Source: Escherichia coli
GTDB taxonomy: Bacteria > Pseudomonadota > Gammaproteobacteria > Enterobacterales > Enterobacteriaceae
Length of the DNA stretch: 64,000 nt
Assembly: GCF_030013205.1 (NCBI RefSeq)
Contig: NZ_CP122648.1
Reading direction: 5' to 3' (one strand)
The notes under the pieces were generated by a model that saw nothing but the letters and a program-made list of their open reading frames with translations, did not search any database and was not told where the DNA came from. This document shows positions 7,369-15,885 of this stretch, one piece after another; the stretch's first letter is position 1, and every line of letters starts with the position of its first letter. Made by a program: the position numbers and the translations under genes.

Positions 7369-8912
7369 AAAACCACCTTCGCCAGATTATCAACGATGGC
7401 TCTGTTCAGACGCGCCTCTTCTTCCAGTTGCGCTTCAAACTCAGCTTTAAGAGCCGTAAAGCGTTCTTTAAAGTCGAAATCGTCTTCTTCATCAGCAAGA
7501 CCAACATAACGGCCAGGTGTCAGCACATAATCGAGTTTAGCAACTTCAGCAATGTCTACTGACGCACAGAAACCAGCGACGTCTTCGTAGTCGCCACCTT
7601 TGTTACGCCAGTTATGATAGGTATCAGCGATGGTTTTTATATCGTCGTCAGAAAGTACTTTGGTACGACGATTAATTAAATGACCGAGATTACGGGCATC
7701 AATAAACAGAATTTCTTTACTACGATCACGATACTGGTTGCTGTTATGACGGTCACGGCGCATAAACCATAATGCAGCAGGGATCTGAGTATTCAGGAAC
7801 AGCTTTGCCGGTAAGTTGACGATACAGTCAATCACATTGGCATCTTTTACCAGTGCAGCACGAATATCACCTTCACCAGAGCTTTTAGAAGTTAATGCCC
7901 CTTTTGCCAGAACAACACCCGCTTGCCCTTTAGGAGACAAGTGATACAAAAAATGTTGCATCCATGCAAAGTTAGCGTTGCCAGCAGGTGGAATGCCATA
8001 TTGCCAGCGGGCATCACCACGAAGCTGCTCACCAGACCAGTCGGAAACGTTAAACGGTGGGTTAGCTATGATAAAATCAGATTTCAAATCTTTGTGAGCA
8101 TCGTTAAGAAATGAACCTTCATTATTCCAGCGAACGTGTTCAGAATTAATCCCACGAATTGCCAGGTTCATTTTTGCCAGACGCCAAGTGGTCTGGTTGG
8201 ACTCCTGCCCATAGATCGAAATATCGTCAATATTTCCCTGATGTGCTTCTACAAATTTTTCTGACTGAACGAACATACCACCAGAACCACAGCAGGGATC
8301 AAAGACACGGCCTTTATAGGGTTCCAGCATGTTAACCAGCAGGCTTACAATAGATTTTGGCGTATAGAACTGGCCGCCTTGTTTGCCTTCTGCCAGTGCA
8401 AATTCACCTAGGAAGTATTCGAATACGTGACCTAAAACGTCAGCAGAGCGTGCTTTGGCATCTCCTAGTGCAATGTTGCCAATCAGATCTATCAGCTCAC
8501 CCAGAACAGTGGCGTCGAGGTTTTGTCGGGCATAGACTTTCGGCAACACACCTTTTAACTGTGGATTGCCCGCTTCGATAAGCTCCATCGCATCATCAAC
8601 CATCTTACCGATTTCAGGAAGCTTGGCCTTAGAAATCAGATAGTTCCAACGTGCAAGCTCAGGGACAAAGAAAACGTTGTAAGCGGTGTACTCGTCTTTG
8701 TCTTCCGGATCAGCACCTGCGAACTCGCCTTTACCGGCTTTCAGCAACTCATAATGAGATTCAAAAGAATCAGAAATGTACTTAAGGAAAATGAGGCCTA
8801 GTACGACGTGCTTGTACTCGGCTGCATCAATGTTTTTACGCAGTTTGTCTGCCGCTTTCCACAGGATGACCTCTAACGGGTCTGTTTTGATTTCTTTAGG
8901 TTTTCTGGCCAT
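7365..8912 (-). CDS. hsdM: Type I R-M N6-adenine DNA methyltransferase HsdM
   Basis: 515 aa. It has the HsdM N-terminal region (LWKAADKLR...[16 protein letters not shown]), the SAM motif [10 protein letters not shown] and the catalytic NPPF. Confidence 0.93.
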
Positions 8913-9074
8913 TAGCGTAACCTTATGAAGGGGGAAGATGGCCCTATTTTGCCTTAAAGTTCCGCTTGTTACGAGCTTATACAGCGATTAATTATTATCT
9001 GGTTTTAGTGTGTTCGTGTAGCTCAGCAAGTGCAATGACTCATGGAGTAAATGCTTTGTAGCGGGATTGTAGAT

Positions 9075-9422
9075 GTCAGGTCATTGCCGTCAATGGAGCC
9101 AGTGTCATTGGCATAATTGCTGCACAGCCGATGCCACGCGCACATTCGCTAGTTCACTGTGGTTCATCGTGTGTACTACACCAGTACGCAGTCCGGGAAG
9201 TAACGGCATGGCAGAATCGTTTGTAAAGACGTTCAAGCGGGATTATGTGTACGTAGATGATCTGCTGGATGCAGTCTAAATGATGGAAACAATGGCAGAA
9301 TAGATAGAGGATTATAATAATCTGCATCCACACAAGGGGTTGAACATGAAATCGCCACGCGAATATCGTGATGCCATATTAGCAGTTAATTAGCCGTGTC
9401 CGTTTTAGCAGGGACAACTCCA
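9075..9422 (+). pseudogene. Remnant of an IS3-family (IS2-like) transposase 3' end with terminal repeat
   Basis: ...TRTFASSLWFIVCTTPVRSPGSNGMAESFVKTFKRDYV..., then after a stop/frame break ...EDYNNLHPHKGLNMKSPREYRDAIL. This parallels the IS2 OrfB C-terminus ([23 protein letters not shown]...HPHSALGYRSPREY). The element ends ...gggacaactcCA at 9422 (IS3-family TG...CA end). The 5' two-thirds of the IS is missing. Confidence 0.7.
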
Positions 9423-9733
9423 GTATTCAAAAAAGCTTTCTTAGTGCATATGCATGAGGTGAATAGATGTACAGGCTATGACAAACCATAGTTGTAATTT
9501 TTAATGTTTAAAATTCTCCGTTACAGTAGGACATTCCTTGTACATTAAATTCCATCTAAGGTTGAATTTTTAATTTAATAAGGTCGCAATCTAAAATGAT
9601 GTGTATGGGGTTATTTGTAAGATGATTTTTTATTTTTGATAGTGGTGATTAAGGGAGCGGGTAATGTTTGTCTATTCAAAAATATAGAGATTCAAGGTTG
9701 GTAGCAGTTTGGCTTCTTTTATAACCGAAGGGC

Positions 9734-9798
9734 AGAAAAGCAAGGGGAACTCGAAGAAGCAAGCGCAGCGGCTTCGCAGAGTTAGCCCTTGCTTCTCT
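9734..9798. repeat. Extended imperfect hairpin (about 65 nt) in an AT-rich spacer
   Basis: agaaaagcaaggg (9734-9746) pairs with cccttgcttctct (9786-9798) with one mismatch. Inner helices are aactc/gagtt and gaagc/gcttc. It is locally GC-richer than its surroundings. Confidence 0.6.
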
Positions 9799-9833
9799 TA
9801 TAATTGGCATTATTCATTCAAGAACAATAGGAT

Positions 9834-9853
9834 CTTCGCTTGTACAAGCGAAG
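9834..9853. repeat. Perfect 20-bp palindrome CTTCGCTTGT|ACAAGCGAAG
   Basis: Read directly from the sequence. It shares the gcttg/caagc core with the hairpin about 40 bp upstream. Confidence 0.85.
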
Positions 9854-10508
9854 CTATAATAAAAACAATCAATTAATAATTTTAAAAGTATTAAACAAGA
9901 ACCTATTGACATTCATAAAATACAAGTTATTTATAATGTATGCCATAAATAAAAAGTTTTATGTCATATGTATCCTGCACTATGTGCAGTTAATGTACCA
10001 CTTGTCCCATAGATGGGAATATTGGAAAGGTTACTTTGTTTTGAAGTAGCCTTTCGTCCTTCAATATTAACGATTACTTATTGCTATTACCAAGTCCAGT
10101 CGAATCGAAGAACATCTTTTATCTGAAACGACTCCTAATACCCGGTTAAAGCCACAATATCTCTCGCATACGTAGACCAAAGAAAAATTATGATATTAAC
10201 TATGTGATTTTTTTTAGTGTTAAGTTGAATAATTAAATACTGGAGAGTTTTCTGTGCACTACCAATTGCTGGTTCATCTGTTCTGCCGCTGATGTTTCTG
10301 ACGAATCTCCCGGTGACACAGAACTGTCCCTCTCTACCAGCCTTTATTCGACTCAATGTCCGGCTGCTGATACGCAGTTATCCCTTCGTATCAATGACTG
10401 ACACTTAAACGTAATGCTTTGGTTGCTGGCGTATCTGACAGCTTCTTCGGCGTGAAGGTCGTTGTGTAAGTATACTTCTTGGTTTATTTAGGCTATATAA
10501 AACCATGA

Positions 10509-11405
10509 CTATGACTTGCTGTTTTCAGTAAGAGTCTTATCATCCAAAGAATTTATTCTAGAAATTCTTTTTAACTCATTAAGATAATCAACCTCGTTTT
10601 CTAAGAACCAATGAAGAACTTTAGAATTGCCAAGTAATTTATTAATATATGACTGGATTATAACGAATTTCAACATATCTGAACCATACTCGGTTTGAAG
10701 CTTTTTCGTTTCTTCCGAAGTTGTTGCCATTTCTTGTTCCAGACGAAGTATGGTTTTTTTTATGTCCTTTTTATAGGGAGTGTTTTTCCCTTTATTTACT
10801 ATCATCGATGCCGGTGTTGCATCCAAGATGCTCATTGCAAATTTTTTACTATAATTATCAAAATTAATCATTGTACCGACTGCTTCAATTTGGCGAATTG
10901 GCTTCATTTTCCTCAAAACGTCAAATGTAGCCTTAGGTATAGGTTTATCAGAAAGTTTCGCAATTACACTTGGATCTATGCCGTTCATCACATTCGCTTT
11001 ATCTTTTATGGCATCAACAGATATGCCCAAAGCAGCACTAAGTTTTTCAATTGATACTTTTGCCAGAGACTTAATTATCATTCTATGTTCTTCAACTACA
11101 TTTATATGATTCACTTGTTTGTTAGGAGTGAAAGCATCATCTATGCTCGAAAGTATACATGGAGCTTTTTCTATACCTAAGTCTTTTAAAGCCTCAACCC
11201 TTAAATGGCCATCAAGTATCTTAGTGACATCTTTATCTTTGTCATAGAATACTATTATTGGTTCAATAATACCTAAGCTTTCGATAGAGGTAACTATTTG
11301 ATGATATTTATGGCTTCGCTTTACGTTTTCTAATAATTCCTTAGATGGAATTAACTTATTAGTTTCCAGGTAAATAAAATTATCGCCAAAACGTATCTGA
11401 ATCAT
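10509..11405 (-). CDS. ParB/Srx-fold protein B (298 aa)
   Basis: N-terminal ParB-like nuclease/NTPase-type motif ...KILDGHLRVEALKDLG.... The central region is HTH-like (SIEKLSAALGISVDAIKD) and the C-terminal half is helical. Its start overlaps the upstream stop (ATGA at 11402-11405). Confidence 0.7.
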   Translation of the reverse strand: MIQIRFGDNFIYLETNKLIPSKELLENVKRSHKYHQIVTSIESLGIIEPIIVFYDKDKDVTKILDGHLRVEALKDLGIEKAPCILSSIDDAFTPNKQVNHINVVEEHRMIIKSLAKVSIEKLSAALGISVDAIKDKANVMNGIDPSVIAKLSDKPIPKATFDVLRKMKPIRQIEAVGTMINFDNYSKKFAMSILDATPASMIVNKGKNTPYKKDIKKTILRLEQEMATTSEETKKLQTEYGSDMLKFVIIQSYINKLLGNSKVLHWFLENEVDYLNELKRISRINSLDDKTLTENSKS

Positions 11406-12298
11406 TTTAATACCTCTTTGTTTACTGGGGTTAATATCTGAGATGGTAGTTCTGAAAGATTCTCTTGTTCAAGTATATGTTGAAAGCTTTTATTTATCAT
11501 TATGATGTTAAAAATCTCATTTACTATTAGTAGGTTGGTTTTTATGAATTTTGAGTTGTTATAAACAGATTTATGTTCAGCGATACTATTTTCATAAAGC
11601 TCAATCAACTCCTCTGCAGTCATCCTTTTTGATGGTTTGTGATAATAAAATCCGGCTGCTTTTGCACCTTTATTCCCAACTGTTCTTTGATTTAGAATGT
11701 GTTTTATCTTTATAATGTCCCGACTTTTTATTAATTTTTTATCATATGCTTCGGTAAGAATATCTTGTGCTTCCTCAGTTTCACATCTTGCAAATTGCAC
11801 TGCGAGATACAGAGGCAAATTACCCCGTTCGACTGCTGAGAGAAGTTTATGCTCTCCCTTATCAAGTAGCATATTAATACTGCTCACCCAGTTCGATGAA
11901 TATCCAGTAATCTCACTTATTTCGGAGTCTGAAAGTCCTCTGATTTTCATGTCTTTAATCACCTGTAATAACTCATTAGAACGTGGTCTTCTCCTTGCAA
12001 TGTTTTCAACTAAACTCATAACGTAAGCATCTTCTTCTGATACATCTCTTATAATTGCTGGAATAATAGTTTCACCTAATGCAACGAGAGCCTCTATTCT
12101 CCCTTGACCACAAATTAAAGCATATTTGAAATCGCCTTCATCAATAGCTCTTACGCTTATTGGCTTGCTTAATCCTCTTTTTTTTATGCTTTCCTTTATT
12201 TCTTCATGCACTACCTTATTTCTTGTTCGTGGGTTAAGAAATTTTATTTTTGCAATCTCAATTTGAATTATTGGGAATTCATTTTTTTCAGGCAGCAT
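11402..12298 (-). CDS. ParB/Srx-fold protein A (298 aa)
   Basis: ParB N-terminal domain motifs ...YALICGQGRIEAL... and ...SLVENIARR.... An HTH follows (LSDSEISEITGYSSNWVSSI). It overlaps the recombinase 3' end by 11 nt. Confidence 0.75.
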   Translation of the reverse strand: MLPEKNEFPIIQIEIAKIKFLNPRTRNKVVHEEIKESIKKRGLSKPISVRAIDEGDFKYALICGQGRIEALVALGETIIPAIIRDVSEEDAYVMSLVENIARRRPRSNELLQVIKDMKIRGLSDSEISEITGYSSNWVSSINMLLDKGEHKLLSAVERGNLPLYLAVQFARCETEEAQDILTEAYDKKLIKSRDIIKIKHILNQRTVGNKGAKAAGFYYHKPSKRMTAEELIELYENSIAEHKSVYNNSKFIKTNLLIVNEIFNIIMINKSFQHILEQENLSELPSQILTPVNKEVLK

Positions 12299-13844
12299 AT
12301 AGTTCCCTCACTTTCATGCGAGTAATAATTTGTAGAAGTTTATCAAGATTATCAAATCTATAGAGATCTAATCGAATGTTGTTTGTTTCCGTCATGCACA
12401 TTTTATTATATTCGTTTTCAATCTTTGGTATGATATAAAAATCAAGAGGTGAAATATTTTGTGAATTCATTCGTATAACAATTGTTATGTCTGCTTTCTG
12501 TGAGTTATCAAACCGGACTTTCCATCTAAGTTTACCTGATTTCATATGTATGCATTTAGTAACAAGGACGGAAATTAAAAACTCATCATTGATGTAAAGC
12601 ATTGGGGCATATTTATACTCGTCTATATGACAGTTACTTTTTAAAATTTCACCCTTAAAATCCTCAATTATCTCTGAGTAAAATGATCTTAGTGCTTCAT
12701 TTATTTTGAGATAGCTGTAATCATGTTCTGGCTTATAACCAATCAAAGTATATGCTCTTAAAAGACCACCAAATCGGGTTCTATAAACAGAAGATGAAGG
12801 GCCTGTATCATCTTCATCAATGATAAAGCCTGATAGTTTTCCATTAGATTCTAATTTTTGTTTTAGTTTTTCTAATAGATCTTCATTAGTCAAATGAATG
12901 GATCGGAGCTGAATTATTTCTTGAGCTTTATTGTATTTTTTCTTTGAAATAATAGGTTTATATGCCTTGTCACATCTAACCCATTCATGTTTGGGGTTTT
13001 TTACAAGCCTACTTTTTAATTTAGATGAGGTTTTGTTATATATGTTGTTTCCAATATATTTTTCATTTGTCAAAATTTGATGTATTTTTGCACGAGTCCA
13101 TAATGTTCCATTTTCTGCAGGTATGTTCTGTTCATTTAATCTCTCAGCAATAATGAATTCTGGGACGTTATTATCTATAAAGAGATCATATATTCTATTT
13201 ACAATTTTTATTTCATTTTTTGGTCCCGGAATTAATATTACCCTATCTGTTTGAATACTCTTTCTTTTGCGGAAACTCAATATTTCTTTAGCTATGCCAT
13301 TTTCGTCTACTAAAAGACGTCTCAGCCCATAACCAGCCATACCGCCTTGATGATAACCAAGCTTTATTAAATTTACTTGCCCTATAAATACCTTTTCAGA
13401 TAGATTCCTGCTGTGATATGCAGCACTAGATCTTTTTATATTCAGTATAACAGAGGACTCTAAAGGGAAATCTTTAGTGGGTATAGGTTCGGAACAATAT
13501 ATAAGATCTACACCATTTCTCTCAAATAGAAAGGAATAATATGCCGCTTCATCACTATTTTGAAAACGACCAAAACGGCTCACATCATAAAATAATACAG
13601 CCTGTATATCTATTTTCTTTTGTTCTACATCGCTAAGTAACTGCTGCAAAGAATGCCTGCCTACGATACTGACTCCGCTCTTACCTGCATCATCGTAGGT
13701 ATAAGCGATTTCCATATTGTTCTTTTCAGCATAATCTTTGATATATTCGGACTGATTATGTAAAGAATATTGCTGATGGTCGGTAGACATCCTCAAGTAC
13801 TGCGCGACCCTAACTCTATGATTTTTGTCATTTTCGCTAGCCAT
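12288..13844 (-). CDS. Large serine recombinase (518 aa) lacking an obvious zinc ribbon
   Basis: Resolvase-type catalytic N-terminus (RVAQYLRMSTDHQ..., DVSRFGR). The 'recombinase' domain is present (LWTRAKIHQILTNEKYIGNNIYNK). The C-terminal ~200 aa contain only isolated Cys and no CxxC pairs. RBS gagg lies 8 nt upstream of the ATG. Confidence 0.85.
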   Translation of the reverse strand: MASENDKNHRVRVAQYLRMSTDHQQYSLHNQSEYIKDYAEKNNMEIAYTYDDAGKSGVSIVGRHSLQQLLSDVEQKKIDIQAVLFYDVSRFGRFQNSDEAAYYSFLFERNGVDLIYCSEPIPTKDFPLESSVILNIKRSSAAYHSRNLSEKVFIGQVNLIKLGYHQGGMAGYGLRRLLVDENGIAKEILSFRKRKSIQTDRVILIPGPKNEIKIVNRIYDLFIDNNVPEFIIAERLNEQNIPAENGTLWTRAKIHQILTNEKYIGNNIYNKTSSKLKSRLVKNPKHEWVRCDKAYKPIISKKKYNKAQEIIQLRSIHLTNEDLLEKLKQKLESNGKLSGFIIDEDDTGPSSSVYRTRFGGLLRAYTLIGYKPEHDYSYLKINEALRSFYSEIIEDFKGEILKSNCHIDEYKYAPMLYINDEFLISVLVTKCIHMKSGKLRWKVRFDNSQKADITIVIRMNSQNISPLDFYIIPKIENEYNKMCMTETNNIRLDLYRFDNLDKLLQIITRMKVRELYAA

Positions 13845-14014
13845 GCACGAAACCTCATGGATGATTCAATACAATGTAGTGGATAAAATTGATCAAATTT
13901 CAACCGAATTCAACTGTTTTATCATTGATTAGAGCGAATTTGGTAGATCTTCGAGGTGTATGATAATCGAGAAGAGATGTGAATTATTTAGCTGATATGA
14001 CCGACAGCTTTCGT

Positions 14015-14064
14015 TATGTGGACTCAATGTCCCCATTTGTAAATGGCTATGCTTAGTCCACATA
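14015..14064. repeat. 50-bp dyad-symmetric site upstream of the serine recombinase gene
   Basis: The outer 10-bp arms tatgtggact (14015-14024) and agtccacata (14055-14064) share one centre with the inner ccattt-gt-aaatgg (14033-14046). That centre is the gt dinucleotide at 14039-14040. Confidence 0.75.
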
Positions 14065-14126
14065 GGTTAATGGTGTGATTATTAATTCTTTAACTAAATC
14101 AAGATAGTTAATCCATCATGGGAGAG

Positions 14127-15356
14127 TTATGCGGCCATAACTTTGCATTTTTGAGACGAAACATAGTCACTCCACCATTGCATGAGAACCACCCGTTCAG
14201 TGAGATACTCTGCACGATTGTAGGCTGCAATTATTTCATCTTTCTTCGAGTGGGCAAGGGCGGCTTCTAAGACATCAGTCCTAAACTTGCCAGACTCCTC
14301 AGCAGCCGTTCTAGCAATGGATCGCATACCGTGAGCTACAAGCTCACCTCCGAAACCCATACGGATTATGGCCGCATTAGCTGTTTGTTCATGCATGTGA
14401 TTGAGTGGAGCTTTGATACTGGGGAACACCCACTCTCTATGCCCGCTGATGACTTTCATTAAATCCAAAACTCGCAAAGCTTCTTTGCTCAGTGGAACTT
14501 TGTGAGGCTTCTTCATTTTCATAAACTCCGCCGGGATGTTCCACATGCCAGTTTCAATATCAATATCTGACCATCTTGTGCGAACAGCTTCACCTGGGCG
14601 AACCCATGTGAGAAGTTGCCACTCAATCAGTAGCCTTGTTTCCAAACGGATAGAAGCATTGTTTAGAGCAACCAAGAAGCGAGGGAGTTCGGAAGGGGGT
14701 AATGCTGGCATATTCTGTTTTTTTGGCTTGCTGAACCGTTGCCCCAGGTTGTCTGCCGGGTTGAATTCTATGAGTTCTTCTGTTGCTGCATAGCGGAAAA
14801 TTTCATTCAGGCGGGATATGATGCGGCGAAGTGTTTCAAGGACACCTCGTTTTTCTATGGGTTCTAAATGCTGTTTAAGCATTTTAGGGCGAATCTCCTT
14901 AATTGGGGTATCACCCAATGTGGAAAAGATATTTCTCTCTAGGCTTCGCCAGATGTCGTTAGCATGATCTTGGGAGATGCCTGACGTTTTGACTTTCTCA
15001 TCAAGCCACTTCTTGGCTACTGCTTGAAATGTATGTTCCGTGGCATCTTTCAGTGCATTGGCTTTTTGGTTGTTATGAACTTGGGGGTCTATACCATTTG
15101 TAAGCAACGACAAGTATTCATCACGTAAAGCTCGTGCCTTCGCAAGTGTAAGGTGAGGATAGGTTCCTAAGCTCACCTTAGTTCGCTTTTTGGTCACAGG
15201 CACTGCATATCTGAAATACCAATTTTTCTTCCCTCCCTTCGCCAGGGGAGCGATTCGCAACAGCAAACCATCGCCGTCAAAAAGGTTAACCTCTTTTTCG
15301 GCAGGTTTGGTGCTTTTGATTTCAGTGTCAGTGAGCTTCTTAGCGATTTTGGCCAT
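14127..15356 (-). CDS. P4-type tyrosine integrase (ssrA-specific, CP4-57 IntA-like)
   Basis: The N-terminus MAKIAKKLTDTEIKSTKPAEKEVNLFDGDGLLLRI...WYFRY parallels K-12 IntA (MARKTKPLTDTEIKAAKP...). The C-terminal catalytic region has ...HGMRS...AALAH...Y. It lies directly next to the tmRNA 3' end. An upstream in-frame start at 15437 is less likely. Confidence 0.9.
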   Translation of the reverse strand: MAKIAKKLTDTEIKSTKPAEKEVNLFDGDGLLLRIAPLAKGGKKNWYFRYAVPVTKKRTKVSLGTYPHLTLAKARALRDEYLSLLTNGIDPQVHNNQKANALKDATEHTFQAVAKKWLDEKVKTSGISQDHANDIWRSLERNIFSTLGDTPIKEIRPKMLKQHLEPIEKRGVLETLRRIISRLNEIFRYAATEELIEFNPADNLGQRFSKPKKQNMPALPPSELPRFLVALNNASIRLETRLLIEWQLLTWVRPGEAVRTRWSDIDIETGMWNIPAEFMKMKKPHKVPLSKEALRVLDLMKVISGHREWVFPSIKAPLNHMHEQTANAAIIRMGFGGELVAHGMRSIARTAAEESGKFRTDVLEAALAHSKKDEIIAAYNRAEYLTERVVLMQWWSDYVSSQKCKVMAA

Positions 15357-15522: not shown

Positions 15523-15885
15523 TGGTGGAGCTGGCGGGAGTTGAACCCGCGTCCGAAATTCCTACGTCCTCGGTACTACATGCTTAGTCAGTCTTTACAT
15601 TCGCTTGCCAGCTGCGGACGGACACGCCACTAACAAACTAGCCTGATTAAGTTTTAACGCTTCAACCCCAGGCAGGGCTTCCACGCGATCTCTTTTGGGT
15701 TTGACCTCTCTTGATCCCCGTCCTAAGAGCGGAGGCTAGGGAGAGAGGGCTCTAAGCAGGTTATTAAGCTGCTAAAGCGTAGTTTTCGTCGTTTGCGACT
15801 ATTTTTTGCGGCTTTTTACGAGGCCAACCGCCCCTCGGCATGCACCTTGGGTTTCGCAAATCCCGTCGAATCCAGAATCAGCCCC
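15523..15885 (-). ncRNA. ssrA: tmRNA (SsrA), 363 nt
   Basis: The reverse complement begins GGGGCTGATTCTGGATTCGACGGGATTTGCG and ends ...GGTTCAACTCCCGCCAGCTCCACCA. It contains the tag reading frame GCAAACGACGAAAACTACGCTTTAGCAGCTTAA (ANDENYALAA). Confidence 0.97.

What the first reader, a model, noticed from the sequence alone, without database searches (positions are those of the whole stretch)
9423..10508. 1.1-kb AT-rich non-coding stretch downstream of the ParB genes, packed with a perfect 20-bp palindrome and several hairpins
Seen:
- There is no convincing ORF between the IS2-like end (9422) and the ParB-B stop (10509).
- It contains an about 65-nt extended hairpin (9734-9798).
- A perfect palindrome CTTCGCTTGTACAAGCGAAG (9834-9853) shares the gcttg/caagc core with that hairpin.
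- Three consecutive short hairpins follow (9975-9989 ctgcac-tat-gtgcag; 10005-10018 tcccat-ag-atggga; 10025-10055 gaaaggttac...gtagcctttc).

Established knowledge: ParB-family proteins load at about 16-bp palindromic parS sites.

Inference: the palindrome and hairpin could be the cognate loading site(s) for the two orphan ParB-fold proteins. Alternatively the region encodes a structured RNA belonging to the module.
Basis: partly seen in the sequence, partly recalled or inferred. Interest (0 to 1): 0.5.

Follow-up and report, generated by a model that had tools for sequence, protein, structure and literature searches.

The report
Orphan transfer-origin hairpins, not ParB sites
The non-coding stretch beside the ParB genes is a patchwork left from the backbone of a mobilizable genomic island: a conserved two-hairpin element that looks like an orphan origin of conjugative transfer, a conserved three-hairpin unit that may be a small RNA gene, and a dead insertion-sequence fragment; nothing ties it to ParB loading.

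Summary
The ParB-loading reading does not hold. The palindrome and long hairpin are missing from divergent rec-ParB-ParB operons and from many E. coli strains with intact ParB genes. They are present in islands that have no ParB genes.

The stretch is a mosaic.
- **9716-9794** is a conserved two-hairpin element. 8 of its 25 base pairs show compensatory changes. In 27 of about 64 copies examined, a mobC-like gene, usually followed by a MOBP-like relaxase gene, lies within about 5 kb. It is always on the same side and in the same orientation, most often 100-200 nt away. No mob genes are present in this island, so this copy is a candidate orphan oriT.
- **9906-10059** carries an invariant TTGACAT followed by three covarying hairpins. 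It occurs as three divergent types. One type lies directly after ParB-B and ends in a canonical terminator. It is a candidate small RNA with no Rfam match.
- **10318-10459** is an IS3-family transposase remnant.
- **13886-13899**, a separate palindrome upstream of the recombinase gene, is a better operator candidate for the ParB module.

All functions are inferred from comparison.

The parts
9423..9713 (.). AT-rich spacer of unknown origin between the IS fragment end and the conserved element
   Evidence: It is found only in window-type and XJ6.2-type ssrA islands (297 E. coli genomes), and nothing is annotated under it. The conserved backbone ends at 9714, and at least eight different sequences abut that point in other islands.
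9716..9794 (+). Conserved two-hairpin element, a candidate orphan origin of transfer (oriT). Hairpin A pairs 9717-9722 with 9734-9739 and has an inner CC-GAA-GG mini-stem at 9725-9731. Hairpin B pairs 9740-9746 with 9786-9792, 9748-9752 with 9779-9783, and 9756-9760 with 9771-9775.
   Evidence: Covariance model R1 hits 9716-9794 at 105 bits. Across 21 distinct variants, 96.6% of cells are paired and 8 of 25 pairs carry changes on both sides; 0 of 500 shuffles reach this, and slid controls give 0-1 such pairs. A mobC-like gene, usually with a MOBP-like relaxase gene, lies on the low-coordinate side, on the minus strand, in 27 of about 64 copies examined and never on the other side.
9834..9853 (.). 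Perfect 20-bp palindrome CTTCGCTTG-TA-CAAGCGAAG, function unknown. It is a candidate protein-binding site in the region flanking the candidate oriT.
   Evidence: It is unique in the window, and 10 of 5000 shuffles produce an equivalent. Both arms are kept intact in L061-L063, whose surrounding DNA is 83% identical; only the centre changes, TA to CA. XJ6.2 carries the half-site in direct repeats and a degenerate copy of the palindrome. It does not co-occur with divergent ParB trios.
9906..10059 (+). Conserved structured unit, a candidate small RNA gene. It comprises an invariant TTGACAT (9906-9912), an imperfect hairpin at 9939-9968, and hairpins 1-3 at 9975-9989, 10005-10018 and 10025-10055.
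   Evidence: Twelve variants were aligned. 98.9% of cells are paired and 3 pairs have changes on both sides. G-U pairs point to the + strand as the structured strand. Model R2 hits 9970-10062 and finds divergent copies in L027, L028 and L053. Those copies have a fully re-coded hairpin 1 and a canonical terminator. There is no Rfam match.
10060..10317 (.). Spacer of unknown function
   Evidence: The 83%-identical alignment with L061-L063 (window 9716-10211) covers this spacer only up to 10211. No integrase remnant was detected.
10318..10459 (+). Decayed internal fragment of an IS3-family transposase gene (orfB N-terminal region)
   Evidence: DNA is 71% identical to ISSen4. tblastx aligns FGCWRI*QLLRREG with FGYRRIWQLLRREG. 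RefSeq annotates a partial, frameshifted 'IS3 family transposase' here in some genomes.
10461..10508 (-). 3' flank of ParB-B containing a short inverted repeat (GGTTTTAT...ATAAACC). It is the only part of the stretch that stays linked to ParB-B in close relatives.
   Evidence: It is 95.7% identical in L011 and L012, and similarity to the window stops at 10461.
13886..13899 (.). Palindrome AAATTGATCAAATT about 42 nt upstream of the recombinase start codon. It lies outside the finding and is the better candidate for the cognate operator of the rec-ParB-ParB operon.
   Evidence: AAATTGATCAATTT, with at most one mismatch, sits at the same position upstream of rec in the window clade and in L011, L012, L022, L023, L036, L038, L040, L041, L042 and L055, where ParB-B is 43-97% identical to the window's.

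Best explanation
**Setting (shown).** The window is E. coli chromosome with a genomic island inserted at ssrA. All genes listed here are on the minus strand. Going down in coordinates the order is tmRNA, P4-type integrase, large serine recombinase, ParB-A, ParB-B, this 1.1-kb stretch, an IS fragment, and a type I restriction-modification system.

**What the stretch is (shown).** It is a mosaic of at least six pieces with separate evolutionary histories.

**What it most likely does (inferred).**
1. Window 9716-9794 is a self-contained two-hairpin DNA element. In related islands it sits about 100-200 nt upstream of a mobC-like accessory gene and a MOBP-like relaxase gene. That is the position and form of an origin of transfer. 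Here the mob genes are gone, so the element would be an orphan oriT. It would let the island be nicked and mobilized in trans by a relaxase from a related element together with a helper conjugative system. This is the 'iOriT' kind of island described in bioRxiv 10.64898/2026.01.13.699239.
2. Window 9906-10059 is a separate conserved unit. It has an invariant -35-like TTGACAT and three stem-loops kept by compensatory change, structured on the + strand. It is most likely a small RNA of about 120 nt, transcribed convergently towards ParB-B. Its target is unknown.
3. The 20-bp palindrome between these two is probably a binding site for a dimeric protein acting in the oriT-flanking region. It is not the ParB site.
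4. Window 10318-10459 is dead IS3 coding sequence.

The ancestral island backbone appears to be int, rec-ParBA-ParBB, cargo, element, mobC, relaxase.
For: **Mosaic structure**
- XJ6.2 shares window 8000-9804 and then diverges. It lacks 9805-14160.
- Islands in other genera share 9714-10508 at about 98% identity, and similarity then stops.
- L061 shares 9716-10211 at 83% identity in an island next to ygbA in which no ParB genes were found.

**The two-hairpin element**
- nhmmer finds 38 copies, 26 of them distinct.
- The structure-aware count gives 96.6% of cells paired and 8 of 25 pairs with changes on both sides. 0 of 500 shuffles reach that, and slid controls give 0-1.
- The top of hairpin B varies in length while pairing is kept.

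**Link to mobilization genes**
- Among the 38 copies from complete genomes and viral contigs, 10 have mob genes within 4.5 kb. All 10 are on the same side and the same strand, 100-2300 nt away.
- In an independent metagenome scan, 17 of 26 true copies have the mobC-like gene on that side, 15 of them with the relaxase. In 16 of the 17 the distance is 108-196 nt. None has mob genes on the other side.
- The relaxase matches Pfam Relaxase (PF03432) and NCBIfam TraI/MobA(P). The accessory protein matches NikA-like only weakly.

**Selection without neighbouring mob genes**
- Copies with no mob genes nearby still show compensatory changes, for example ACTC/GAGT to ACCC/GGGT in L004.

**Backbone**
- L011, L012, L036, L038, L042, L080, L121 and L172 carry the element. 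In seven of them the ParB trio lies on the high-coordinate side; it was not checked for L080. Mob genes are detected on the low-coordinate side in L012, L036, L038, L080 and L172. In L011, L042 and L121 the fetched DNA ends 196-323 nt beyond the element, so mob presence could not be assessed.

**The three-hairpin unit**
- Hairpin 1 is CTGCAC/GTGCAG in type A, CTGTAC/GTACAG in type B and CAGCCC/GGGCTG in type C.
- The hairpin-2 motif TTGYCCCA-N4-TGGGRA occurs nowhere else in about 900 kb of held sequence.
- Type C ends in GGAAAGGGCC-TTAC-GGCCCTTTTCTATTTTAT.

**IS remnant**
-.
Against: **Untested steps**
- No nick site, transfer or transcript has been observed. Every function here is inferred from comparison.

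**Against the oriT reading**
- No known MOBP or MOBQ nick consensus is present next to the inverted repeat. RP4-type ATCCTG is absent. CTG-CCCTT on the minus strand only loosely resembles the MOBQ core GCG-CCCT. This comparison is from my own knowledge, not a tool test.
- The element has no DNA homolog on any plasmid or phage.
- It is not detected upstream of the closest plasmid relaxases, which are 50-60% identical.
- On both strands hairpin B is flanked by an A-run and a T-run, as a bidirectional terminator would be.

**Against the small-RNA reading**
- The TATAAT box lies 20 nt from TTGACA and is not conserved (TTTAAT, CTTAAT and TATTAA in variants).
- The window's terminal hairpin has no U-tract.
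- Only three lineages supply the covariation, and many sequences were collected with a pattern that required hairpin 3.
- The unit's orientation relative to ParB-B differs between the window (convergent) and L027 (tandem).
Confidence: 0.6

Rival explanations
1. The palindrome at 9834-9853 and the long hairpin would be the parS-like loading sites of the two orphan ParB-fold proteins encoded next door.
For: The sites lie within 700 nt of the ParB-B stop codon, and the palindrome is statistically unusual. Both proteins have ParB_N plus RepB C-terminal domains. The element and the ParB trio recur in the same islands: L011, L012, L036, L038, L042, L121 and L172.
Against: The palindrome is absent from all divergent trio loci, L015-L055. 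It is also absent from L011 and L012, where ParB-B is 97% identical. The ParB genes stay intact in strains where IS elements deleted both sites; 8 of 40 evenly spaced rows begin beyond the palindrome. L061-L063 carry both sites, and XJ6.2 carries the hairpin and a degenerate palindrome, without ParB genes in the DNA fetched. There is only one copy, and it has no similarity to the chromosomal parS consensus TGTTNCACGTGAAACA (from my own knowledge). A different palindrome upstream of rec does track the trio.
Confidence: 0.06
2. The two-hairpin element would be a bidirectional transcription terminator or insulator at a module boundary of the island, not an origin of transfer. It would stop read-through between cargo genes and the mob or ParB operons.
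For: Hairpin B has a GC-rich base (GCAAGGG/CCCTTGC). AGAAAA precedes it and TTCTCTT follows it on the + strand, and TTTTCT follows it on the - strand, in all variants. It sits between differently oriented modules, and homology breakpoints fall at both of its ends.
Against: The terminator scan finds nothing in 9300-10700. The stem is about 25 bp long with internal loops, far longer than typical terminators. A second hairpin with an almost invariant 11-nt loop (AACCGAAGGGC) and a covarying stem has no role in a terminator. Sequence conservation of 73-87% across otherwise unrelated flanks, and a fixed side and spacing relative to the mobC-like gene in 27 copies, are what an oriT predicts and are not expected of a terminator.
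Confidence: 0.17
3. The three-hairpin unit would act as single-stranded DNA, not as RNA. It would be a priming signal or single-strand promoter in the leading region that enters the recipient first after nicking at the neighbouring oriT, analogous to G4-type ssi signals or Frpo of conjugative plasmids.
For: The unit lies 110-600 nt from the candidate oriT, on the side away from the mob genes, in types A and B. G-T-tolerant pairing is confined to the + strand, which would be the transferred strand if the mob genes enter last. Folds with DNA parameters give z -4.3 to -6.6. The -10 box is not conserved, which weakens the case for an ordinary promoter. The resemblance to three-hairpin G4-type signals is from my own knowledge only.
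Against: Type C copies (L027, L028, L053) have no detectable two-hairpin element in the 7 kb of flank held, and they end in a canonical RNA terminator with a T-run. There is no sequence similarity to any phage record, a collection that would be expected to include G4-like phages. The transferred strand is not known.
Confidence: 0.15
4. The stretch would have no function. It would be decaying junk between an IS scar and the ParB operon, and the hairpins would be inherited relics.
For: The stretch contains an IS3 remnant. It is bordered by another IS fragment. It is repeatedly truncated by IS1 or IS3 in natural strains with no visible effect on neighbouring genes.
Against: Compensatory base changes in both structured elements across genera show purifying selection on pairing. 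The element keeps sharp conserved boundaries while its flanks are replaced.
Confidence: 0.08

Closest known systems
Origins of transfer of MOBP-type mobilizable elements (RP4/R64-type oriT: an inverted repeat beside a nick site, upstream of an RHH accessory gene and the relaxase gene)
   Same: An inverted-repeat element lies 100-200 nt upstream of a small NikA-like accessory gene followed by a MobA/VirD2-fold relaxase gene. The relaxase carries the HxDxxxxHxH motif (LHDDEDGQHIHII). Side and orientation are fixed in all 27 copies that have mob genes nearby.
   Different: There is no ATCCTG-type nick sequence. The element has two hairpins, including a long bulged one of about 50 nt, rather than a 17-19-bp repeat. 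It has no DNA similarity to any plasmid. In this window the relaxase and accessory genes are absent.
iOriT islands: genomic islands that carry an oriT but no relaxase (Ares-Arroyo et al., bioRxiv 10.64898/2026.01.13.699239)
   Same: This is an integrase-bearing island at a tRNA-like gene (ssrA). No relaxase was found from ssrA to the core boundary. It carries a copy of a sequence that elsewhere lies upstream of relaxases. A restriction-modification system sits close to the candidate oriT, as that paper reports for oriT neighbourhoods.
   Different: I could not check whether this element belongs to one of that paper's 52 new oriT families. No helper element has been identified. Transfer is untested.
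parS sites of ParABS partition systems
   Same: It is a perfect palindrome close to genes for ParB_N-domain proteins.
   Different: It is 20 bp long with an unrelated sequence. There is a single copy. There is no ParA. It does not co-occur with the ParB genes in relatives. It is found without ParB genes.
Island- and prophage-encoded small RNAs with an own promoter and a terminal hairpin shared with a convergent gene
   Same: It has a -35-like box, a series of short GC-stem hairpins kept by compensatory change, and a terminal hairpin that abuts the stop codon of a convergent gene: int in XJ6.2 and a 986-aa ORF in L027.
   Different: It matches no Rfam family. The -10 box is not conserved. The window copy has no U-tract. 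There is no expression evidence.

Membership tests
parS / ParB loading site | Co-occurs with the cognate parB genes in related elements | tested here: not met
   The half-site is absent downstream of ParB-B in L011, L012 and L015-L055. It is present in L061-L063 and XJ6.2, where no ParB genes were found.
parS / ParB loading site | 16-bp palindrome related to a known parS consensus, usually in several copies near parB | tested here: not met
   There is a single 20-bp palindrome in the 64-kb window. Its sequence is unrelated to TGTTNCACGTGAAACA (consensus from my own knowledge).
parS / ParB loading site | Bound by the ParB protein (CTP-dependent loading) | not testable with these tools
   This needs EMSA or ChIP-seq.
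oriT of a MOBP-type relaxase | Lies in the first intergenic region upstream of the relaxase or accessory gene | tested here: met
   This is met in homologous copies: 10 loci and 17 of 26 metagenome copies, all on the same side and strand, most often 100-200 nt away. It is not met in the window itself, which has no mob genes within 4.5 kb.
oriT of a MOBP-type relaxase | Inverted repeat conserved as a structure | tested here: met
   96.6% of cells are paired and 8 of 25 pairs have changes on both sides; 0 of 500 shuffles reach that.
oriT of a MOBP-type relaxase | Recognizable nick-site consensus a few nucleotides from the repeat | tested here: inconclusive
   ATCCTG is absent (read). The conserved candidates are the loop AACCGAAGGGC and GCTTAWT, which lies 3' of hairpin B. 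Neither matches a consensus I know.
oriT of a MOBP-type relaxase | Strand-specific nicking and mobilization in the presence of the relaxase and a helper | not testable with these tools
   This needs a conjugation assay and nick mapping.
iOriT genomic island | Integrative island with an integrase and an att-site gene, and no relaxase or mating-pair-formation genes | tested here: met
   The integrase lies next to tmRNA (15523-15885). RefSeq annotation from ssrA to the alpha-amylase pseudogene lists no relaxase. tblastn with mob proteins finds nothing in the window.
Intrinsic terminator | Short GC-rich stem-loop directly followed by a U-tract | tested here: inconclusive
   The scan finds none in 9300-10700. 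Hairpin B is followed by TTTTCT on the - strand and TTCTCTT on the + strand, but its stem is much longer than the scan allows.
Described RNA family (Rfam 15) | Covariance-model match at or near the gathering score | tested here: not met
   The best matches have E 0.13-0.31 and are eukaryotic families, so they are chance hits. The type C copy in L027 also has no match.
Bacterial small RNA gene | Own promoter, conserved secondary structure, and a terminator | tested here: inconclusive
   TTGACAT is invariant in 12 variants, but the -10 box is not conserved. The structure is supported: 3 pairs have changes on both sides, and hairpin 1 is fully re-coded in type C. A canonical terminator is present only in type C.
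IS3-family transposase pseudogene | Translated similarity to IS3-family OrfB, interrupted by stops or frameshifts | tested here: met
   See (window 10318-10459).

The most novel reading that the evidence does not exclude
Two previously undescribed cis elements would sit side by side here.
1. A new oriT family specific to integrative elements. It would have two hairpins, including a GNA-triloop mini-hairpin with an invariant loop. It would let a relaxase-less ssrA island carrying a type I restriction-modification system be mobilized in trans.
2. A new island-borne structured RNA family (types A, B and C) that sits at convergent gene ends next to integrase, ParB or cargo genes.

Together with the widespread rec-ParB-ParB operon and its own upstream palindrome, these would define the backbone of an uncharacterized family of integrative mobilizable elements in Enterobacterales.
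Probability: 0.35. Interest if true: 0.6.

Novelty: new member of a known kind. Interest (0 to 1): 0.45.

Why it matters
If the two-hairpin element is a working oriT, this common E. coli ssrA island and its restriction-modification cargo could move by conjugation without encoding any transfer protein. Part of the stretch is present in 639 of 5426 complete genomes. Near-identical copies of window 9714-10508 occur in Enterobacter, Leclercia, Phytobacter and, as far as the contig extends, Kluyvera. That spread is hard to explain otherwise. The element would then be a concrete, testable example of the recently proposed 'iOriT' class.

The three-hairpin unit is a cheap candidate for a new island-encoded small RNA.

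For annotation, the result warns against assigning a nearby palindrome to ParB-like genes. The palindrome that actually tracks the rec-ParB-ParB operon lies upstream of the recombinase gene.

Tried and rejected
- **Rfam.** I searched window 8800-11000 and L027 7850-8300 with permissive thresholds and found only chance hits.
- **Plasmid and phage DNA.** Searches with the stretch found nothing on plasmids, and one marginal 77-nt hit in a Salmonella record of the phage collection.
- **Integrase remnant.** I looked for one next to hairpin 3, as the XJ6.2 layout suggested, and found none.
- **ssrA/att repeat or tRNA-like remnant.** ARAGORN finds only the real tmRNA at 15523-15885.
- **Site for the serine recombinase.** I rejected this because the hairpin and palindrome occur in islands where no such recombinase gene was seen (L056-L058, L061-L063, XJ6.2), and no second copy flanks the rec module.
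- **The element next to the closest plasmid relaxases.** OX345050.1 and a Pseudomonas plasmid give no significant R1 hit.
- **Defence-system reading of the trio.** PADLOC gives no match to a defence-system protein.
- **Solved structures.** A sequence search with the relaxase N-terminus found no match.
- **More copies of the unit.** A viral-contig scan with the hairpin-2 motif returned only random matches beyond the known copies.
- **Literature.** A full-text search for the element's core sequence found only unrelated primer-like matches.
- **PIME elements** (bioRxiv 10.64898/2026.01.12.698999). These are a different family, with an IncP-like oriT and TraJ/TraI/RepA.
Full report
**1. Setting**

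The window is E. coli chromosome. The 1086-nt stretch is 100% identical in many complete genomes, and part of it is present in 639 of 5426. It is always chromosomal and never on a plasmid.

In APEC O78 the RefSeq annotation places it inside an island inserted at ssrA. On the minus strand, in descending coordinates, the order is:
- tmRNA (window 15523-15885)
- a P4-type tyrosine integrase
- a 518-aa serine recombinase (12288-13844)
- ParB-A (11402-12298)
- ParB-B (10509-11405)
- the non-coding stretch
- a partial IS integrase-core pseudogene
- a type I restriction-modification system

Pfam shows ParB_N plus RepB C-terminal domains in both ParB proteins, and Resolvase plus Recombinase domains in the recombinase. 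PADLOC gives no match to a defence-system protein.

**2.

All four described features are at the stated coordinates.
- The 20-bp palindrome is the only perfect palindrome with arms of 9 nt or more in 64 kb. Only 10 of 5000 shuffles of the region produce one.
- Folding of 9700-9815 and 9965-10065 is better than dinucleotide shuffles. z ranges from -2.2 to -3.8 as RNA and from -4.3 to -6.6 for the hairpin cluster with DNA parameters.
- No ORF longer than 73 aa is present, and RefSeq annotates nothing in the best-matching genomes.

There is one correction. Window 10318-10459 is a decayed IS3-family transposase fragment. It is 71% identical in DNA to ISSen4. tblastx aligns FGCWRI*QLLRREG with FGYRRIWQLLRREG. 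Some RefSeq records annotate a partial IS3 pseudogene there.

**3. The stretch is a mosaic**

Different genomes share different sub-segments.
- XJ6.2 shares window 8000-9804. It then has 689 unrelated bases and runs straight into its integrase. It lacks 9805-14160, which includes the recombinase and both ParB genes.
- Enterobacter, Phytobacter and Leclercia genomes, one unclassified bacterial genome (L013) and many E. coli share 9714-10508 at about 98% identity, and similarity stops at 9714. A Kluyvera contig shares 9782-10508 and ends there.
- At least eight unrelated sequences abut that same point.
- L061-L063 share 9716-10211 at 83% identity in an island beside ygbA in which no ParB genes were found.
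- L011 and L012, with ParB-B 97% identical, share only 10461-10506.
- IS1 or IS3 insertions truncate the stretch at 9906, 10129, 10165 and 10275 in KFu022, 2011EL-1370-2, BL21 and EC0885. All of these keep intact ParB genes.

**4. The long hairpin is half of a conserved two-hairpin element linked to mobilization genes**

A distant search with 9700-9815 found copies at 75-87% identity in otherwise unrelated islands. In DEC5D, H10407 and p10B the copy lies upstream of a small gene followed by a 'relaxase/mobilization nuclease' gene.

The relaxase matches Pfam Relaxase (PF03432). It matches NCBIfam TraI/MobA(P) below the cutoff. It carries LHDDEDGQHIHII. The small protein matches NikA-like weakly.

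The architecture is:
- **Hairpin A:** CTTTTCT, the loop AACCGAAGGGC, then AGAAAAG. Inside the loop is an inner CC-GAA-GG mini-stem.
- **Hairpin B:** GCAAGGG..AACTC..variable apex..GAGTT-AG-CCCTTGC.

A covariance model (R1) gave a structure-aware alignment of 22 copies. On it:
- 96.6% of cells are paired.
- 8 of 25 pairs have changes on both sides (31 cells).
- 0 of 500 shuffles reach any of these values.
- Slid controls give 0-1 such pairs.

This alignment was fitted to the structure, which favours it. The changes are also plain in the raw sequences, for example CTTTACT/AGTAAAG in L012, GCAAGA/TCTTGC in L011 and L012, and ACTGAGC/GCTCAGT in L038 and L042.

Geometry relative to mob genes is constant.
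- Whenever a mobC-like or relaxase gene lies within 4.5 kb, it is on the low-coordinate side, on the minus strand. This holds in 10 loci, at 100-2300 nt.
R1 confirmed 26 of them.
- 17 of those 26 have the mobC-like gene on that side, 15 of them with the relaxase. In 16 of the 17 the distance is 108-196 nt. None has mob genes on the other side.

This is the criterion used to define new oriT families in bioRxiv 10.64898/2026.01.13.699239. That paper also describes relaxase-less islands carrying such sequences, which it calls iOriTs.

The window has no mob genes. Its copy, and other copies without mob genes nearby, still show compensatory change (L004, L013, L010). This points to selection for a cis-acting role that does not need neighbouring mob genes.

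I therefore read 9716-9794 as a candidate orphan oriT. Three points remain open:
- I could not identify the nick site.
- No known MOBP or MOBQ consensus is present.
- The element has no homolog on plasmids or next to the closest plasmid relaxases.

The main rival is a bidirectional terminator, because A-runs and T-runs flank hairpin B. That does not explain hairpin A with its invariant loop, or the fixed relation to the mobC-like gene.

**5. The three short hairpins belong to a separate conserved unit**

Window 9906-10059 has homologs in three lineages:
- L061-L063, at about 90% identity
- XJ6.2, L074 and L077 (type B, 74% identity), where the last hairpin abuts the integrase stop codon

In 12 aligned variants TTGACAT is invariant. 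The three stems are 98.9% paired, and 3 pairs have changes on both sides:
- CG to UA in hairpin 1
- UA, UG and CG in hairpin 2
- UA to GU at the top of hairpin 3, where UG to CG also occurs as a one-sided change

The G-U pairs make the + strand the structured strand.

A second model (R2) found divergent type C copies in L027, L028 and L053, where ParB-B is about 44% identical. These copies lie directly downstream of ParB-B, on the same strand as ParB-B. In them:
- Hairpin 1 is fully re-coded (CAGCCC-AAT-GGGCTG).
- The hairpin-2 motif TTGCCCCA-N4-TGGGGA occurs twice.
- The unit ends in a canonical terminator, GGAAAGGGCC-TTAC-GGCCCTTTTCTATTTTAT.

L030 has a shorter version. The hairpin-2 motif is found nowhere else in about 900 kb of held DNA. 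Rfam has no match.

The simplest reading is a small RNA gene. The weak points are:
- The TATAAT box is 20 nt from TTGACA and is not conserved.
- The window copy has no U-tract.
- Only three lineages provide the covariation.
- The collection pattern required hairpin 3.

A function as single-stranded DNA in the leading region next to the oriT is a live alternative.

**6. The palindrome**

It lies 36 nt to the high-coordinate side of hairpin B.
- Its arms are unchanged in L061-L063, although the surrounding DNA is 83% identical. Only the central TA becomes CA.
- XJ6.2 has the half-site CTTCGCTTG in two direct repeats, plus a degenerate copy of the palindrome.
- It therefore travels with the two-hairpin element, not with ParB.

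I can only propose that it binds a dimeric protein acting in the oriT-flanking region. Nothing tests this.

**7. The ParB interpretation**

The rec-ParBA-ParBB operon is widespread. It is present in about 44 of 48 loci, from Enterobacterales to Alpha- and Betaproteobacteria. None of the divergent loci has the palindrome or the long hairpin directly after ParB-B.

The only palindrome that tracks the operon is AAATTGATCAATTT, about 40-55 nt upstream of the recombinase start. It is present with at most one mismatch in the window (13886-13899) and in L008-L014, L020, L022, L023, L036, L038, L040, L041, L042 and L055. That is the better operator candidate, and it too is untested.

There is a looser link. 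The ParB trio and the element recur in the same islands in one fixed order. In L011, L012, L036, L038, L042, L121 and L172 the trio lies on the high-coordinate side of the element. Mob genes are detected on the other side in L012, L036, L038 and L172, and in L080, where the trio was not checked. In L011, L042 and L121 the fetched DNA ends too close to the element to tell. So both probably belong to the backbone of one family of integrative mobilizable elements.

**8. Verdict**

The ParB-loading idea is not supported. The structured-RNA idea is partly supported.

The stretch is best described as the remnant of an integrative mobilizable element's backbone. It holds a candidate orphan oriT, a candidate small RNA gene, a palindrome of unknown role and an IS3 scar.

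In kind this is known (oriT, iOriT islands, island small RNAs). The particular elements appear to be undescribed. All functional statements are inferences from comparative sequence evidence.

Noticed in passing
window 10509-13844; loci L008-L055: The three-gene operon (large serine recombinase, ParB-A, ParB-B) is conserved with overlapping or tightly spaced genes in about 44 of 48 loci, from Enterobacterales to Alpha- and Betaproteobacteria and a Sumerlaeia MAG. It has no match to a PADLOC defence-system protein and no ParA partner. Its function is unknown.
   Followed up: partly
window 13886-13899; e.g. L011 4507, L022 4516, L036 4533: A palindrome AAATTGATCAATTT with a central GATC Dam site lies about 40-55 nt upstream of the recombinase start. 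It is conserved in several lineages whose ParB-B is only 43-50% identical to the window's. It is a likely operator of the operon.
   Followed up: partly
L027 7886-7935; L053, L030 and L033 at the equivalent position: An 11-bp inverted repeat, ACTATGAACAA...TTGTTCATAGT, starts about 10 nt after the ParB-B stop codon. It is conserved in four lineages. It is absent from the window, which has a different short repeat at 10461-10508.
   Followed up: no
L003 (XJ6.2) about 9420-9620: Between the two-hairpin element and the three-hairpin unit, XJ6.2 has direct repeats of GCTTCGCTTGCATTGATTTTAAAGCTTCTCTTGCAG. It also has a 32-codon Cys-rich ORF with a Shine-Dalgarno-like AAGGAAG upstream (MKRLFKCFACIDFKSFSCSAGSASNIHLRLCK). 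The degenerate copy of the window's palindrome overlaps the 3' end of that ORF.
   Followed up: no
window 9725-9731 (loop of hairpin A): The nearly invariant loop contains CC-GAA-GG, a C(GNA)G mini-hairpin of the kind known to be unusually stable in single-stranded DNA (from my own knowledge). Its outer pair covaries, CG to TA, in L011, L012 and L057. This suggests the element works as single-stranded DNA.
   Followed up: partly
L002 (BL21), L005, L006, L007, L004: The stretch is a hotspot for IS1 and IS3 insertion with adjacent deletion. Laboratory strain BL21 keeps only window 10165-10508 and has lost the candidate oriT, the palindrome and the three-hairpin unit.
   Followed up: yes
L056-L058 (DEC5D, H10407, p10B): The relaxase-linked copies of the element sit in islands that begin with two or three tandem tyrosine recombinase genes plus a 'DNA-binding protein' gene. 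This layout resembles the GInt type of island (from my own knowledge). The cargo differs immediately beyond hairpin B.
   Followed up: no
L016 and L040 (MAGs labelled Neobacillus and Ureibacillus): These MAGs carry trio operons that are 43-62% identical to the enterobacterial ones. L016's non-coding flanks are about 89% identical to those of L015 (Scandinavium). The bins are probably contaminated or mislabelled.
   Followed up: no
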